A DNA stretch of 64,000 nucleotides. Source: Coleofasciculus chthonoplastes F2-STO-03 (GTDB lineage: Bacteria > Cyanobacteriota > Cyanobacteriia > Cyanobacteriales > Coleofasciculaceae). A program made the translations under genes and the position numbers. Of the stretch, positions 44,914 through 62,870 are shown piece by piece (within the stretch, counting starts at the first letter, position 1; the number at the start of each line of letters is the position of its first letter). The notes below the pieces were generated by a model. That model was given only the letters and a program-made list of their open reading frames with translations. It was not told the origin of the DNA and searched no databases. The stretch lies in NCBI GenBank assembly GCA_040222015.1, contig JAVJWO010000018.1:1-64000 (forward strand), read 5' to 3'.

Positions 44914-45040
44914 ATCTCTTGTGAGGGTTAGAAGCTGTTTGCTAATTTATAGACACACCCAAGAATTAACCCACCCCAAACAACCAACCAACATTGTAGA
45001 GACGTAGCATGCTACGTCTCTACAGTGTGACGGATCTGAA

Positions 45041-47381: not shown

Positions 47382-47514
47382 GGATGGAGGAGATGGGGAA
47401 GCTTGTAGAGACGTAGCATGCTACGTCTGGGAGATGGGGGAAACGAATAACGAATGACAAATAACGAATAATAAATCTGCCAAAATAGGAACAAAGGGTT
47501 TAAATGCACAGGCG

Positions 47515-49588: not shown

Positions 49589-50140
49589 ATGAAATACAAT
49601 CCAGATCAACATCATCGACGTTCAATTCGCCTGAAAGACTATGATTATACACAGCCTGGAGCCTATTTTATTACCATTTGTACTTGGCAACGCCAAACCC
49701 TGTTAGGTGAAATCATCGATAGTCAAATGCAGTTAAGCGATTCCGGCAAATTTGTCTATTTACATTGGCAAAATTTGCTTCACCATCATCCTAATTTAAA
49801 ATTAGATGAATTTATGATTATGCCCAATCATCTCCATGGCATCCTGATATTGACAGCGGATACTACCAGTCAAAAACACCATGGCTTGCCAGAGATTATC
49901 CGGGGATTCAAAACCTTTTCAGCACGCCGCATTAATAAAAATCGTCGCCAGAGTGGTGTCCCTGTGTGGCAACGTGGCTATTATGAACATATTATCCGCA
50001 ATGAACAATCATTAACCGCGATTCGTGAATACATTGTGAATAATCCCATAGCCTGGGAAGAAGACGAATTGCACCCTAGTGGTTCTCAAGAATGGGATGG
50101 AACCATTAAAAAATTAGCTTTGCATAAGAATCGAAGATAA
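49589..50140 (+). CDS. REP-associated tyrosine transposase (RAYT/TnpA-REP)
   Basis: RRSIRL..YDY...G.YFITIC, HUH motif MPNHLHGI, WQRGYYEHIIR, catalytic YI.NNP. Confidence 0.92.
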   Translation: MKYNPDQHHRRSIRLKDYDYTQPGAYFITICTWQRQTLLGEIIDSQMQLSDSGKFVYLHWQNLLHHHPNLKLDEFMIMPNHLHGILILTADTTSQKHHGLPEIIRGFKTFSARRINKNRRQSGVPVWQRGYYEHIIRNEQSLTAIREYIVNNPIAWEEDELHPSGSQEWDGTIKKLALHKNRR

Positions 50141-59055: not shown

Positions 59056-59919
59056 CTACGTTAATTCTTGCAACAACCAAAATCCAGCAAAGGTTTCTGA
59101 GGTTGGCGTTGACTGCACTGCAAGAAAATGTATGGACTGGGCGTTTTCTTTGGCAGATTCAAAGCCTTCAGCTTCCGCTAGGGTTTGAGCATCGGTTAGG
59201 TTGGCTAAAGCCCAGCTATCACTAGCACCCGTTTCCAGTAATAGCCGGGGAGTGGCACCTCCCTGAAATTTAACAAACGCTAGTTCTAAACCTGACATCC
59301 ATGCGGCTAAGGCTTTGGCGCGATCAGAGAAAATAATCATGCCCGGAATGCGCGTATCTGGAGCCAGATCCATCATTGACAGGGGAAAAGCTTCGCCAAA
59401 GTCAATGTCCCACTCATCCATATCAGCAAATGCTTCGGCTTCCAAACTAACCAATGCCCATTTTTGTCCCTGGATGGCATCGGGTAAGGGTTGAGGAACC
59501 TGAGGTTGGTAGCGCACAGAGGCAGAGGCGGCGGCTGAGGACTGATATCCGGGTTGATGGGGATAAACGTCCTTGATCCGGTGGTTTAGCCAGTGATCAA
59601 GCCTGTATGTCCGACGACTGGCGATCGCGGGAATGCCTAACTCTTGGCAGGCTTTAGTAATCATGTTGTTCATCTGACGCCGGAAAAAGCGAATTTTTGT
59701 CGGTGTTTGTCCCGATGCCGCGATCGCTTCTTCTAGGGATTGCCGCAACCATAAGGAGTTGACCTCCTGGTTGGAACAAAACTGCGCGTACTGAAATAAT
59801 TTGTCCGTGGATTGGTGGATGTTTAAAGGACTCTGACAGATTAAGACTTCCCAGAGCTTCTTCTGATTGTCATCCAATATTGGACGTGAATAGAAATCGA
59901 GTTCCCAAATAATCGTCAT
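59056..59919 (-). CDS. Tab2/Atab2 family RNA-binding protein (DUF1092)
   Basis: WELDFYSRP.LD..KK.WE, RFFR.QM, LAAWMSGLE, HFLAVQ, FAGFWLL. Confidence 0.9.
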   Translation of the reverse strand: MTIIWELDFYSRPILDDNQKKLWEVLICQSPLNIHQSTDKLFQYAQFCSNQEVNSLWLRQSLEEAIAASGQTPTKIRFFRRQMNNMITKACQELGIPAIASRRTYRLDHWLNHRIKDVYPHQPGYQSSAAASASVRYQPQVPQPLPDAIQGQKWALVSLEAEAFADMDEWDIDFGEAFPLSMMDLAPDTRIPGMIIFSDRAKALAAWMSGLELAFVKFQGGATPRLLLETGASDSWALANLTDAQTLAEAEGFESAKENAQSIHFLAVQSTPTSETFAGFWLLQELT

Positions 59920-60039
59920 CTCATTCGATGTATTGCGTTCACATGAAAGTCTGGGCAATTACAGACTCGTGCTTTCAACACCTCGACTTCGCTCGGTGTT
60001 GACCCTGAGCGAAGCCGAAGGGTCAACCTGTACGCATAG

Positions 60040-60286
60040 GGGTTGCTTAATTGGGCTTGCGCCCCTCCCGGAAACGGGGTAACGTTTGCCTCGCATAAGT
60101 TATGCCTCGGTACTTTCTCTAACACACGCTGTTTAACCCTTTAAGCCTTTTTAATGCTGGAGTAGGTACAGACGTAGCATGCTACGTCTCTACAACGCTT
60201 AGACATAACGTAGACCGCGTAGGTCTTAGGCTGGTCAGGTTGCGGCTCAATTCCAAGCCCCCGCCTTTAGGCGTGGGGTTCCTGAC
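60040..60286 (-). ncRNA. HEARO/IscB-type omegaRNA scaffold without an iscB ORF
   Basis: Minus strand: GTCAggaACCCCACGCCTAAAGGCGGGGGCTTG...CTGACCAGCCTAAG...CTACGTT...TTAAACAG...GCGAGGCAAACGTTACCCC...GGGAGG, then an ATG that stops after 4 codons. Confidence 0.7.
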
Positions 60287-60303
60287 GCCAAGATGTAATC
60301 TAA

Positions 60304-60440
60304 CCGCTTCTAAAAACCTGATCAGATCTATACAAAGATCGTCACATCTAGGCAAAACACAGCGGTGTATGTTTATACGAGCGTTCGTCCCAAGTGCGTC
60401 AAGAGCTTCCCTGTTGAGGGTTGACCAAGGACTCCCAGTT
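60304..60440 (-). ncRNA. Predicted omegaRNA/IS607-like right end of the TnpB-related gene, overlapping its 3' end
   Basis: Minus strand ends ...gatctttgtatagatctgatcaggtttttagaagcGG, similar in layout to the 38116..38238 end. Confidence 0.5.
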
Positions 60441-61853
60441 AGAGATACCATAATAGGTGTGCCTACTATGAATAGAACACTTGAGTCTATTATTCAGTTG
60501 ATGCCAATAGCTCCATACGTGCTTGCTATCGTTCACCGATAGATAGGCGGTTATGGAGCCTGGTAATTTTTCCCCTAATCTCATCCCACGACGGGCGATC
60601 ACCAGTGCCGCCGCTTCATCACTAGCTAATCCATACATCCGGGCATATTTGACGCCTCCAATCAGACTGCTATAGGCTGGATTGACTGTTTTCACTTCTA
60701 TGCCGCGATTATTCAATATGGCGGTCAATAACTTGGAGAAACGACTATAGGCCCATCCAGACAGCATTCGGGCATATTTGCGTCTGTTTTCCCTGAGTTG
60801 GGTTTTCTTGCCCGAAAAGTCTAATTCTTCACACACAATCGGGCATTGGTAGGCAATTGCCATATCCAGTAGCCGGAAACAGACCTGTCTAATCGCAGCA
60901 TCCTGTTTACCCCGTGGCTGTCCCATCTCAATGGGGATTTGACCATGATGCTTGAGATTGCCATCCCTGTCCACATAAGACCATCCTACTGAACCGGGAT
61001 TGAGGTCTATCCCAATACACCCATAATGGATTGACCTGGATACCTGCTTAACAGGTGCTCTTGTAAACTGTACTGCTACACACCACTTGTTATCCTTTCG
61101 GTAAAAATACCATGTTTTAGCACCATCTTCTGGTAGTCGATTGACATTTCTCTGGAAGTCCCCTATCTGGGATGAGACATACTTCCCGAACTTTTCCTCT
61201 AAACAATAGGGAACACGCCACCTGATTGTTTGCCCATCCCACTGGCAAGCCTGATTCCCAAATGATTCGTCTTTGGCTCCCACTACATAAACTTGTCCTT
61301 TGGGGATAGTTACCCGAATGGGAGCCGCTTTTAGGTACTCAACCTGCTTCTGGTAGTGGTTTAGCTTGCGCTTTTTGTTGTGCAGTTGAAAACGTAAGTT
61401 TTGCCAATTGCTCTGCCGATACTCGATAGAGCAAGCTAATGGCAATACACACCCCGACTTACTGGCTTGCCAGTTTTTCTGGCGGTAAAACTTACGGGCA
61501 TTCTTAAGAGAGCGTTGAGCCTTTTTAATCCATGCTGCACAGGATTTCGTTTTAGCCGTCAGTACCTTAATGTGCCGTTTACGGTTCTCTCTTGCCGCAT
61601 CTACCGCGCCTTGGGCAAAAACTATCACACCATTAGCGTGACGTTTGTTTATACCGTAACTCTGCTGTAGATATCTGTTCCACCTGGACTTGTTGAATTT
61701 TTCACTTGAGAGGAGATGATTGGCTGTCTCACACCCGCAGACATGGAAAATAGCTGAATATTCCGATAGAAACATTTCTAGTCGGGTTTTCCCTAATGGG
61801 TTAAGCTCCCAAGCTGGTGTAGGTAATCCCTTGCAGTATGTAAGTGTAACCAT
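60399..61853 (-). CDS. tnpB: TnpB-related RuvC protein (IS200/IS605/IS607 accessory, Cas12-ancestral; no zinc finger; no adjacent transposase)
   Basis: RuvC-I GIDLNP, RuvC-II VCEELDF, VNPAYSS, RuvC-III SDEAAALVIARRG; likely start is ATG 61853 (the ORF extends to TTG 61877). Confidence 0.85.
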   Translation of the reverse strand: MVTLTYCKGLPTPAWELNPLGKTRLEMFLSEYSAIFHVCGCETANHLLSSEKFNKSRWNRYLQQSYGINKRHANGVIVFAQGAVDAARENRKRHIKVLTAKTKSCAAWIKKAQRSLKNARKFYRQKNWQASKSGCVLPLACSIEYRQSNWQNLRFQLHNKKRKLNHYQKQVEYLKAAPIRVTIPKGQVYVVGAKDESFGNQACQWDGQTIRWRVPYCLEEKFGKYVSSQIGDFQRNVNRLPEDGAKTWYFYRKDNKWCVAVQFTRAPVKQVSRSIHYGCIGIDLNPGSVGWSYVDRDGNLKHHGQIPIEMGQPRGKQDAAIRQVCFRLLDMAIAYQCPIVCEELDFSGKKTQLRENRRKYARMLSGWAYSRFSKLLTAILNNRGIEVKTVNPAYSSLIGGVKYARMYGLASDEAAALVIARRGMRLGEKLPGSITAYLSVNDSKHVWSYWHQLNNRLKCSIHSRHTYYGISNWESLVNPQQGSS

Positions 61854-62090
61854 TGATTCGACCGGGTCAATGTTCAATTATTGCTTTATTGTATATCGGT
61901 TTTGACGCTTCCTTGCTGCGGATGAAATACTTATTCATTAGGGAAGCTGGGGAAGCTGGGGAAGATGGGGAAGCTGGGGGAGCTGGGGGAGCTGGGGAAG
62001 CAGGGGGAGATGGGCAAGATAACGGATCAGATGTTAAGAACGCGGTAAGTTAGAGGTAAGGGCTCTATCCATACCTGTAAATCACTAATC

Positions 62091-62870
62091 ATGCCTGTGA
62101 ATCGAATTGTCCTATTATGCTTGGTTGGAGGCGGACTGGCTATATTTGTTTTGTCAAATTTGTCAGCCCCCGTCAAGTCTCTCGTATTTTTGGGAATGCA
62201 AACGGTTGCATTGCCGCTGACGGTATGGATAGGATTGGCGATCGCACTCGGCATACTCACCAGTTTAGTCTTACAGTTGCTCAGTTTTCGACCCAGGAGG
62301 GTTCAGAGGTTTGATCGCGCCGCCCAACCATCGCCTCCAAATCGCTGGCGATCAGATGTTGAGTTTGAGGAGGAGGAACCTGAACCCGAGCAAACTGAAC
62401 CAGAAATGCCACCTCCATCACCCCCTCCATCACCCCCACCCCCACCCCCACCCAAATCTTCCCCCTCTGCTTCCGGTTCGGATTGGGATCAAGCTGTTGC
62501 TCCAGAGTGGAACTTTGAAGGAGAATCGGCAACATCCATAGAGGACGAGTTTGACTGGGATGAGTTGGAGAGTCAGCCAGAGGAAGAGGTGTCAGAGGAA
62601 ACAGAGCGCAGTATCGGAAGCGATTGCAGTAGTTATGAACCAAGTCAAGAACCCAGCCGCCGTTCTCAACCCGACTCGGTTTATTCCTACAGTTACCGGG
62701 AATCCAATCAGTCTAAATCGAGGATTGGCAAATCTGAGGCTGTGTATGATGCTAACTATCGAGTAATTACCCCGCCGTACCGCCAACCCCCACCTCAAGC
62801 GGAACCGGAGGATGAGGATGAAGATGAAGACTGGGGATTTGAGTTTGATGATCAAGGCAGAGGTTCGTAG
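62091..62870 (+). CDS. LapA-like membrane protein with an acidic, Pro-rich tail
   Basis: N.....LVFLG.....LPL..W between two TM helices; VYDANYRVITPPY; DEDWGF. Confidence 0.75.
   Translation: MPVNRIVLLCLVGGGLAIFVLSNLSAPVKSLVFLGMQTVALPLTVWIGLAIALGILTSLVLQLLSFRPRRVQRFDRAAQPSPPNRWRSDVEFEEEEPEPEQTEPEMPPPSPPPSPPPPPPPKSSPSASGSDWDQAVAPEWNFEGESATSIEDEFDWDELESQPEEEVSEETERSIGSDCSSYEPSQEPSRRSQPDSVYSYSYRESNQSKSRIGKSEAVYDANYRVITPPYRQPPPQAEPEDEDEDEDWGFEFDDQGRGS

What the first reader, a model, noticed from the sequence alone, without database searches (positions are those of the whole stretch)
60040..60440. Back-to-back OMEGA RNAs: a TnpB-type end and an IscB-type scaffold flank the same 17-nt candidate guide
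Seen on the minus strand: TnpB-related ORF, structured end ...tttttagaagcGG (60304), TTAGATTACATCTTGGC (60303-60287), then the GTCA-initiated HEARO scaffold (from 60286). Known: TnpB omegaRNAs take their guide 3' of the scaffold, IscB omegaRNAs take it 5', and guides are about 15-20 nt. Inference: one transcript could read scaffold-guide-scaffold and program a Cas12-ancestor and a Cas9-ancestor with the same spacer. The mundane alternative is two independent insertions 17 bp apart. I found no second copy of the 17-mer in this window by eye.
Basis: partly seen in the sequence, partly recalled or inferred. Interest (0 to 1): 0.8.

Follow-up and report, generated by a model that had tools for sequence, protein, structure and literature searches.

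The report
Two jumping-gene insertions flanking host DNA
Two unrelated mobile elements, one carrying a Cas12-ancestor gene and one carrying only a Cas9-ancestor guide-RNA scaffold, landed 16-17 bases apart in front of a photosynthesis gene, and the short stretch between them is leftover host DNA rather than a purpose-built shared guide.

Summary
A HEARO/IscB omegaRNA scaffold (RF02033, 95.3 bits, window 60286-60079, minus strand) starts 16-17 nt after the sharply defined right end of a TnpB-like element (end at 60303/60304).

In seven of eight congeners the match to this locus starts at the Tab2 start codon with no HEARO. In the five whose upstream sequence I read, the 5'UTR is uninterrupted and contains the "guide". 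A sixth genome (G004) has the HEARO element at the same site without the TnpB-like element.

So the spacer is residual Tab2 5'UTR caught between two insertions. The more parsimonious order is HEARO first. The later arrival is an IS607-type TnpB element, now without tnpA and with a truncated left end.

The arrangement does not recur: 0 of 30 other HEAROs and 0 of 15 other TnpB-like ends examined, 0 real hits among 46 metagenome pattern matches, and only a chance hit in 300 other genomes of the order.

Both element types take their guide from right-end-flanking DNA, so both RNAs would carry this spacer by construction. No RNA data cover the junction. The case is ordinary in kind, a tidy natural curiosity.

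The parts
60303..61938 (-). IS607-type TnpB-like element. It has no tnpA and its left end is truncated: about 52 nt of the left end and about 85 nt of ancestral flank are missing. The right end is intact.
   Evidence: The right end is shared by 13 copies. IS607 transposase (NF033518, about 212 bits) lies directly upstream of paralogues at C60 and C25.
60399..61877 (-). TnpB-like ORF of 492 aa from TTG. The probable true start is the ATG at 61853, which gives 484 aa. The candidate RuvC triad is D291/E350/D420.
   Evidence: the called protein P0003 is 484 aa; triad invariant in 32 of 32 sequences; TnpB/Cas12 fold.
60303..60470 (-). Conserved 3' region, made of the ORF tail plus 96 nt of non-coding sequence, ending at the right end. 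Candidate TnpB-type guide-RNA (omegaRNA/reRNA) scaffold.
   Evidence: Conserved among paralogues with 59-80% protein identity. The RNAalifold consensus has 20 pairs, 98% paired, but only 2 pairs show compensatory change, a count reached by 36 of 500 shuffles. The single-sequence fold has z = -1.49.
60287..60302 (-). 16-nt spacer (17 nt if T 60303 is counted). It is a remnant of the ancestral Tab2 5'UTR and lacks 4 nt relative to G004.
   Evidence: Empty-site alleles in G001, G002, G003, G007 and G008 and the intermediate allele in G004. An environmental RNA contig has the same empty-site sequence. The spacer is unique in the genome.
60079..60286 (-). HEARO RNA, the IscB-type omegaRNA scaffold, with no iscB gene downstream.
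   Evidence: RF02033 at 95.3 bits. The next gene is Tab2.
59920..60286 (-). Protein-less HEARO element of 367 nt. Four copies in this genome share both its head and its tail. The last 4 nt before the Tab2 ATG are also present in G004.
59056..59919 (-). Tab2/Atab2-type RNA-binding protein gene. Its start codon directly abuts the HEARO element.
   Evidence: Pfam Tab2-like_N (E 1.6e-41) and Tab2-like_C (E 2.8e-58). Synteny with 8 congeners.

Best explanation
Two independent insertions of known kinds of mobile element lie right end to right end in the 5'UTR of a Tab2 gene.

**First insertion (by parsimony).** A protein-less HEARO element, a deletion derivative of an IscB insertion sequence, inserted exactly between the 5'UTR and the Tab2 start codon. 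This happened in the common ancestor of this genome and G004.

**Second insertion.** An IS607-type element carrying a divergent TnpB-like nuclease gene integrated at a GG within GAGGGG, about 21 nt upstream. A further deletion then removed the element's first ~52 nt and ~85 nt of upstream host DNA.

**Consequence for the spacer.** The 16-17 nt between the two ends is leftover host sequence. Both IscB and TnpB guide RNAs read their guide from the DNA flanking the transposon right end. Transcripts leaving either scaffold would therefore carry this same spacer by construction, not by design.

**Shown:** the boundaries, the host origin of the spacer, the uniqueness of the arrangement, and the IS607 affiliation.

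**Inferred:** the order of the two insertions, that the conserved 3' region is a guide-RNA scaffold, and that either RNA is made here.
For: **Empty sites.**
- In 7 of 8 congeners, similarity to the window starts at the Tab2 ATG (59919).
- In the five whose upstream sequence I read, the uninterrupted 5'UTR ends ...GAGGGG-TTAGATTA-(2-3 nt)-CAGTCTTGGC|ATG.
- Contigs in two environmental metatranscriptome runs show the same empty allele.

**Intermediate allele.**
- G004 has the HEARO element at the identical point and shares the far junction.
- Its ancestral upstream DNA is intact and it has no TnpB-like element.

**Ends.**
- 13 of 13 copies end at GAAGCG(G/A)T.
- HEARO homology starts at GTCA.
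- Four copies share the element's tail.

**IS607 type.**
- NF033518 scores 211.7 and 212.9 bits (cut-off 110) directly upstream of paralogues in this genome, and 131.7 bits for a partial copy in L131.
- 7 of 7 readable left flanks end in GGG followed by T.
- The right end finishes in GG.
- The ancestral target is GAGGGG.
- These match published IS607 behaviour: crossover at GG, a GGG TAM, and a fixed right-flank nucleotide (PMC10711439, passages).

**No recurrence.**
- 0 of 30 other HEARO flanks in this genome carry the motif.
- 0 HEARO at gathering score in 15 other loci, 14 of them TnpB-like.
- 0 of 46 metagenome pattern matches are real.
- 1 further match in 300 other genomes of the order, against 3 reversed-pattern controls, and it is unrelated.

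**Decay.**
- The left end is truncated.
- G004's orthologous HEARO has lost about 146 nt of its core.
- This HEARO scores 22nd of the 26 copies above cut-off and carries an inserted 28-nt palindrome.
Against: - The spacing equals a working guide length, and such a close juxtaposition is improbable under uniform placement (my rough estimate is about 4e-4 for this genome).
- The TnpB-like ORF is intact and keeps its catalytic triad, so the nuclease may still be active.
- Tab2 has lost its ancestral upstream region. No promoter-like or terminator-like site was found on the minus strand between the ORF and Tab2. A read-through transcript across the junction is therefore plausible.
- The ancestral target resembles the element's joined ends on both sides of the GG. 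I cannot explain this.
- The order of events assumes that G004 never had the IS607-type element. Precise excision there cannot be excluded.
- No RNA data exist for this strain.
Confidence: 0.85

Rival explanations
1. Functional dual-guide transcript. One minus-strand RNA runs TnpB-type scaffold, spacer, HEARO scaffold. It supplies both a TnpB-like nuclease and an IscB, made in trans, with the same guide.
For: - Both scaffolds and the spacer are on one strand in the right order.
- The TnpB-like ORF is intact.
- The genome has 18 RRXRR/IscB matches, 11 of them with open frames of 350 aa or more.
- No terminator-like site lies between the ORF and HEARO.
- Tab2 needs an upstream promoter.
Against: - The spacer is host DNA with no other target in the genome at 2 mismatches or fewer.
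- The arrangement is unique.
- The TnpB-like element cannot excise because its left end is truncated, so its cognate donor joint cannot form.
- HEAROs of this GTCAGG subtype sit only beside decayed IscB fragments. The nearest intact IscB is 66% identical over 199 aa and has a different HEARO subtype.
- The orthologous HEARO in G004 is decaying.
- One RNA molecule has only one copy of the guide, so the two proteins would compete for it (inference).
Confidence: 0.07
2. Non-random adjacency. One element was directed next to the other, for example by nuclease-induced breaks at the spacer or by the recombinase choosing a site beside HEARO.
For: - The distance matches guide length.
- The ancestral site resembles the IS607-type element's joined ends.
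- The spacer carries a 4-nt deletion relative to G004.
Against: - The target features (GG, GGG) lie in the host 5'UTR and are present in genomes that have no HEARO.
- 0 of 15 other TnpB-like ends examined lie next to a HEARO.
- The flanks of one other insertion (C69) do not resemble the joined ends, by eye.
- The indel lies in a stretch that also varies among the empty-site alleles.
Confidence: 0.05
3. A single composite mobile element that carries both the TnpB-like gene and HEARO.
For: The two are contiguous on one strand.
Against: - G004 has HEARO alone at this site.
- All the other TnpB-like copies examined lack HEARO.
- All 30 other HEARO flanks read lack the right-end motif.
- The DNA between the two is host 5'UTR.
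Confidence: 0.01

Closest known systems
Protein-less (PATE-like) derivatives of IscB insertion sequences that keep only the HEARO/omegaRNA (Meers et al., preprint 10.1101/2023.03.14.532601, passages seen)
   Same: - A HEARO scaffold is bounded by a transposon end, with a variable flank where the guide sits.
- No nuclease gene is present in the element.
- There are many copies per genome, alongside full IscB elements and Y1 TnpA genes.
   Different: - This copy sits directly against a host start codon and against another element's right end.
- No intact IscB is linked to this HEARO subtype in the genome.
- Its transposition motif (TAM) could not be defined here.
IS607-family TnpB elements with right-end guide RNA, for example ISXfa1, and the cyanobacterial IS607 TnpB clade (Yoon et al. 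2023, PMC10711439, passages seen)
   Same: - A serine-recombinase TnpA lies directly upstream of paralogues.
- GG is present at the right end, and GGG at the left flanks and at the ancestral target.
- A nearly fixed nucleotide follows the right end.
- The host is a cyanobacterium.
- The fold is TnpB/Cas12.
   Different: - The protein is about 490 aa and shows no zinc-finger cysteines in the alignment.
- It scores below cut-off for NF040570 and the Pfam TnpB domains.
- I did not test whether it belongs to the published 'pro-Fanzor' clade.
- Its 3' RNA matches no Rfam family at E up to 10.
Adjacent or nested insertions of IscB- and TnpB-type elements noted earlier in this scan (e1-2911338, e1-5484340)
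   Same: Known element kinds that have collided or decayed. A HEARO survives without its nuclease.
   Different: Here the two elements do not interrupt each other. They face each other right end to right end across 16-17 nt, so both guide positions fall on the same host bases.

Membership tests
HEARO / IscB omegaRNA (RF02033) | Covariance-model score at or above the gathering threshold over the full model | tested here: met
   95.3 bits against 83, model positions 1-211 of 211
HEARO / IscB omegaRNA (RF02033) | Lies directly upstream of an iscB (RRXRR + HNH) gene | tested here: not met
   The next gene is Tab2. The copy is an orphan. IscB genes exist elsewhere in the genome.
HEARO / IscB omegaRNA (RF02033) | The 5' end coincides with a transposon end, with a variable flank (guide) upstream | tested here: met
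   Homology among copies starts at GTCA. The 31 upstream flanks read differ by eye, apart from two near-identical contig-end copies.
HEARO / IscB omegaRNA (RF02033) | Expressed as an RNA and bound by IscB | tested here: inconclusive
   Related HEARO copies appear in metatranscriptome contigs, but nothing specific to this copy or its junction does. Binding is not testable here.
IS607-type TnpB element | TnpB/Cas12 RuvC fold with a D-E-D triad | tested here: met
   Foldseek top hits are Cas12f, Cas12k, Cas12g, TnpB and Fanzor2 at E 1e-8 to 1e-5. D291, E350 and D420 are invariant in 32 of 32 sequences. TIGR01766 scores 34.2 against a cut-off of 32.
IS607-type TnpB element | Zinc-finger/TNB domain between RuvC-II and RuvC-III | tested here: not met
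   Pfam TNB scores 15.5 bits (cut-off 26.3) and covers only its first 28 positions. The alignment has no invariant Cys after C345.
IS607-type TnpB element | Serine-recombinase TnpA in the same element | tested here: met
   Met for paralogues at C60 and C25 and for L131: NF033518 scores 211.7, 212.9 and 131.7 bits. It is absent from the window copy, which is non-autonomous.
IS607-type TnpB element | GG crossover dinucleotide at the ends and a G-rich TAM at the left flank | tested here: met
   The right end finishes in ...GCGG. 7 of 7 left flanks end in GGG followed by T. The ancestral target is GAGGGG. The published rule was read in PMC10711439 passages.
IS607-type TnpB element | Structured guide RNA spanning the ORF 3' end to the right end, with the guide taken from the flank | tested here: inconclusive
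   Sequence is conserved up to a sharp end. The predicted structure is 98% paired, but covariation is weak. No Rfam match. No RNA cover.
Dedicated dual-guide (scaffold-guide-scaffold) system | Recurs as a unit in other loci or genomes | tested here: not met
   no second instance found in what was searched.
Dedicated dual-guide (scaffold-guide-scaffold) system | A transcript spans both scaffolds and the spacer | tested here: inconclusive
   No contig of 4 metatranscriptome runs covers 60296-60388. No data exist for this strain.

The most novel reading that the evidence does not exclude
Tab2 has lost its ancestral upstream region here. Its mRNA may therefore start in or upstream of the TnpB-like gene and read through the right end, the 16-17 nt spacer and HEARO. 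Different molecules of that one transcript species could then be processed into a TnpB-type RNP and an IscB-type RNP carrying the same guide. That would be a natural case of one spacer serving a Cas12-ancestor and a Cas9-ancestor, with the HEARO also acting as the 5' leader of an essential-looking host gene.
Probability: 0.07. Interest if true: 0.55.

Novelty: new member of a known kind. Interest (0 to 1): 0.25.

Why it matters
**As it stands.** It matters little. The locus is a well-resolved example of how OMEGA-type elements accumulate, with three allelic states preserved in one genus: empty, HEARO only, and HEARO plus an IS607-type TnpB element. It also shows that what looks like a shared guide can arise trivially, because both nuclease families read their guide from right-end-flanking DNA.

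**As a caution.** Short-spacer juxtapositions of omegaRNA scaffolds should be checked against empty-site alleles before they are read as systems.

**If the junction transcript exists and both proteins load it.** It would be a natural experiment in cross-family guide sharing, and in a host gene transcribed through a guide-RNA scaffold.

Tried and rejected
- **RNA evidence.** Of 12 runs listed, I laid 4 (X1, X2, X4, X6).
  - No contig covers 60296-60388.
  - X1 and X2 hold exact low-depth contigs of the ORF 3' part only (60400-60580 and 60548-60700).
  - All four are assembled contigs, so this says nothing about absence.
- **Covariation in the TnpB-like 3' region.**
  - Only 2 of 20 pairs show compensatory change, a count reached by 36 of 500 shuffles.
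  - The single-sequence fold has z = -1.49, and 15 of 200 shuffles fold at least as well.
  - A hand reading of the terminal hairpin suggests the window copy keeps it in a shifted register. I did not test this formally.
- **Known RNA family for the TnpB-like 3' region.** An Rfam scan at E up to 10 over 59800-62200 gave only HEARO and a noise hit.
- **PDB sequence search with the protein.** 0 hits at E up to 1.
- **Metagenome pattern scan.**
  - It returned 46 matches, about what I calculate for chance.
  - 0 of them resemble the TnpB-like 3' region or the HEARO body.
  - The scan needs the exact right-end motif, so only close relatives could have been found.
- **Close-relative search in genome contigs.** Only 4 loci were returned, none with HEARO.
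- **Promoter and terminator scan.** Counts are at background (5 against 3.1 +/- 1.5, and 3 against 1.9 +/- 1.5), with none on the minus strand between 59900 and 60400.
- **TAM of the HEARO element.** The 3' flanks of the four full copies give no consensus.
- **Junction-like targets as a general rule.** I considered whether the ancestral target's resemblance to the joined element ends is general. The one other insertion whose flanks I compared by eye (C69) does not show it.
- **Earlier scan notes near this place.** None.
- I corrected it.

Full report
**1. What is at the coordinates**

On the minus strand the window reads, in order:
- a 492-aa ORF (61877-60399);
- 96 nt of non-coding sequence ending ...GAAGCGGT at 60303;
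- 16 nt (60302-60287);
- a full-length HEARO RNA (RF02033, 60286-60079, 95.3 bits against a gathering score of 83);
- 160 more nt that belong to the same repeated element;
- directly after that, the ATG (59919) of a Tab2/Atab2-type gene.

**2. The upstream gene is a TnpB relative of the IS607 kind**

Sequence evidence is weak:
- TIGR01766 scores 34.2 bits, just over its cut-off of 32.
- NF040570 and the Pfam TNB domain score below cut-off.
- There are no sequence hits to solved structures.

Fold and family evidence is clear:
- An AlphaFold2 model built on 32 homologues (pLDDT 71.2, pTM 0.53) finds Cas12f, Cas12k, Cas12g, CasX, ISDra2 TnpB and Fanzor2 by Foldseek. In all, 76 matches have E of 0.001 or less, and the best is 1e-8.
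- D291, E350 and D420 are invariant in all 32 sequences.
- The family has 662 hits, almost all from filamentous cyanobacteria. Sources name them 'IS605 OrfB family transposase', 'TnpB-related protein' or hypothetical protein.

The IS607 link comes from the window's own genome (7.72 Mb, 219 contigs):
- Paralogues at C60 and C25 lie directly behind a serine recombinase that scores 211.7 and 212.9 bits for NF033518, 'IS607 family transposase' (cut-off 110).
- A partial copy of that recombinase lies upstream of a relative in another genome (L131).

**3. Where the TnpB-like element ends**
- Thirteen distinct copies from five genomes of the genus share the 3' region and all end ...GAAGCG(G/A)T. After that point their sequences are unrelated.
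- Three more distant copies were read. One ends ...GCGGT and two end ...GCGG followed by A.
- The right end is therefore at 60303 or 60304.

Left ends of intact copies begin GGGT..ACTGTAAC and then carry an inverted repeat.
- In 7 of 7 copies read, the flank-to-element transition is GGG followed by T.
- The window copy begins only at the distal half of that inverted repeat (61938). It lacks about 52 nt of left end.

These features match what Yoon et al. 2023 report for IS607 TnpB elements (PMC10711439; I read passages only):
- integration by crossover between GG dinucleotides;
- a GGG TAM for ISXfa1;
- a fixed right-flanking nucleotide that belongs to the RNA scaffold.

A 2026 review gives AGGAG or GAGGG as the usual IS607 TAMs (PMC13565253, passages).

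**4. Is the 3' region a guide RNA?**
- It is conserved among paralogues whose proteins are only 59-80% identical.
- RNAalifold predicts a closing stem between an invariant ACCG(U/C) and the terminal GCGGU, plus inner helices.
- On 13 sequences, 98.1% of cells are paired. Only 2 of 20 pairs show compensatory change, a count that 36 of 500 shuffles reach.
- The single-sequence fold is not exceptional (z = -1.49).
- No Rfam family matches.

I treat it as a probable TnpB-type scaffold by position and conservation. This is not shown.

**5. The HEARO side**

The genome holds 35 HEARO matches, 26 of them above cut-off.
- Homology to the window copy begins at the GTCA.
- The upstream flanks of the 31 copies I printed differ by eye, apart from two near-identical contig-end copies. 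That is the expected picture when the guide is simply the flank.
- Four copies (C18, C215, C165, C48) share both head and tail, which defines a roughly 320-370-nt protein-less element.

IscB genes in the same genome:
- There are 18 RRXRR/IscB matches, 11 of them with open frames of 350 aa or more. Several lie directly 3' of a HEARO.
- There are also 17 Y1 TnpA matches.
- HEAROs of the window's subtype (GTCAGG...) are linked only to decayed IscB fragments. The nearest intact IscB is 66% identical over 199 aa and has a GTCAAC-type HEARO.

[quoted passage not shown] The two elements here therefore face each other right end to right end.

**6. Origin of the spacer (the decisive result)**

Synteny around the locus is conserved in eight congeners.

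Empty sites:
- In seven of the eight, similarity to the window resumes exactly at the Tab2 ATG.
- I read the upstream sequence of five (G001, G002, G003, G007, G008). The native 5'UTR runs uninterrupted...TTAGAAGAGGGG, then TTAGATTA, 2-3 variable bases, and CAGTCTTGGC, straight into ATG.
- For G005 and G006 I saw only that no HEARO aligns. I did not read their upstream sequence.
- Contigs in two environmental metatranscriptome runs carry the same empty allele (loose end at 59919).

Intermediate allele:
- G004 has the HEARO element at the identical point and shares the far junction and an internal inserted repeat.
- It keeps the whole ancestral upstream sequence and has no TnpB-like element.

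The window's 16-17 nt is therefore the residue of the Tab2 5'UTR. The IS607-type element integrated at the GG of GAGGGG, immediately before TTAGATTA. Its left end and about 85 nt of host DNA were lost afterwards. That DNA is found nowhere else in the genome. The spacer also lacks 4 nt relative to G004, in a stretch that varies among the empty alleles too.

**7. Does the arrangement recur?**

No second instance was found in what I searched.

| Search | Result |
|---|---|
| Other HEARO flanks in this genome | 0 of 30 carry the right-end motif |
| Other TnpB-like ends read | 0 of 15 are followed by a HEARO start |
| Rfam scan of 15 loci (14 TnpB-like plus G004's allele) | 0 HEARO at gathering score |
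| Metagenome pattern scan | 46 matches; 0 resemble either element |
| 301 genomes of the order, window's own included | 1 other match (3-nt gap, unrelated sequence) against 3 reversed-pattern control matches |

The pattern scans need the exact right-end motif, so they reach only close relatives.

**8. How it most likely works**

Each element behaves as its kind does.
- The HEARO element, if still mobile through a TnpA in trans, would be protected by IscB cutting the empty joint that its flank-derived guide matches.
- The IS607-type copy can no longer excise, so its guide has no cognate target.
- The 17-mer has no other match in the genome at 2 mismatches or fewer.
- A shared spacer follows from geometry. 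Both guide positions are the right-end flank, and here the two right ends share one flank.
- Whether any RNA crosses the junction is unknown. No laid contig covers it.
- There is no promoter-like or terminator-like site between the ORF and Tab2 on the minus strand. Tab2 must get its transcript from somewhere upstream. Read-through is therefore plausible but not shown.

**9. Comparison and verdict**
- All parts belong to known kinds: a protein-less IscB omegaRNA element, and a non-autonomous IS607-type TnpB element.
- The juxtaposition is a one-off.
- Earlier notes of this scan describe similar orphan HEAROs and IscB/TnpB collisions on other DNA (e1-5484340, e1-2911338). I did not test those.
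- I searched the paper library for HEARO+IscB+TnpB (12 papers), for IS607+TnpB+cyanobacteria+Fanzor2 (3 papers) and for IscB+TnpB+PATE+guide+'in trans' (53 papers, 12 listed). I read passages of three papers. I saw no description of a spacer shared between the two scaffold types, but I did not search for that specifically.

Interest is low to moderate. The value lies in the clean three-state allelic series and in the caution it gives for reading such juxtapositions.

Noticed in passing
window 59917-59923 (junction of the HEARO element and the Tab2 start codon): The HEARO element sits exactly between the Tab2 5'UTR and its ATG, both here and in G004. Tab2 must therefore be translated from an mRNA whose leader is the HEARO element. 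In this genome the ancestral upstream region is also gone. A distant Tab2 paralogue (33% identity) exists at C211.
   Followed up: partly
window 60166-60193: A 28-nt palindromic repeat is inserted inside the HEARO. The same unit occurs at more than 20 other places in the genome, including window 44994-45024 and 47399-47429. It is very abundant in environmental RNA contigs.
   Followed up: no
window 59976-60024: A roughly 50-nt repeat with internal inverted symmetry lies inside the HEARO element's tail region. It is absent from the sister copy at C215. It is dispersed in this genome and in congeners and has high depth in metatranscriptome contigs. It may be a miniature mobile repeat.
   Followed up: no
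window 61941-62020: A 9-nt tandem repeat (unit GGGAAGCTG on the + strand, 8.7 copies) lies upstream of the element. The array differs in length and unit among congeners. It resembles the short tandem repeats known from filamentous cyanobacteria; that name is recalled, not tested.
   Followed up: partly
window 60303-61938, compared with loci L091-L094 and L097: The ancestral target (…TTAGAAGAGGGG then TTAGATTA…) resembles the element's own right end (…TTAGAAGCGG) on one side. On the other side it resembles the left-end start of some copies (GGGGTTAGA…). This may be chance, target preference of the serine recombinase, or something else. The flanks of one other insertion (C69) do not show it.
   Followed up: partly
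protein P0001 (window 60399-61877, minus strand), residues about 400-420: This TnpB-like family has only about 14 residues between the NPAY(S/T)S motif and the third catalytic Asp, and no conserved cysteines there. The zinc-finger/TNB module typical of TnpB appears to be missing. The C-terminal 60 residues are modelled with low confidence.
   Followed up: partly
locus L090 (G004), positions about 1421-1760: The orthologous HEARO in G004 lacks about 146 nt of the scaffold core (window 60087-60232). It falls below the Rfam gathering score. This suggests that this insertion is not under selection as an RNA.
   Followed up: partly
window 49787-50044 (+): A weak match to the Y1 transposase family (PF01797, 34.6 bits, partial) lies inside the window. 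I did not examine it.
   Followed up: no
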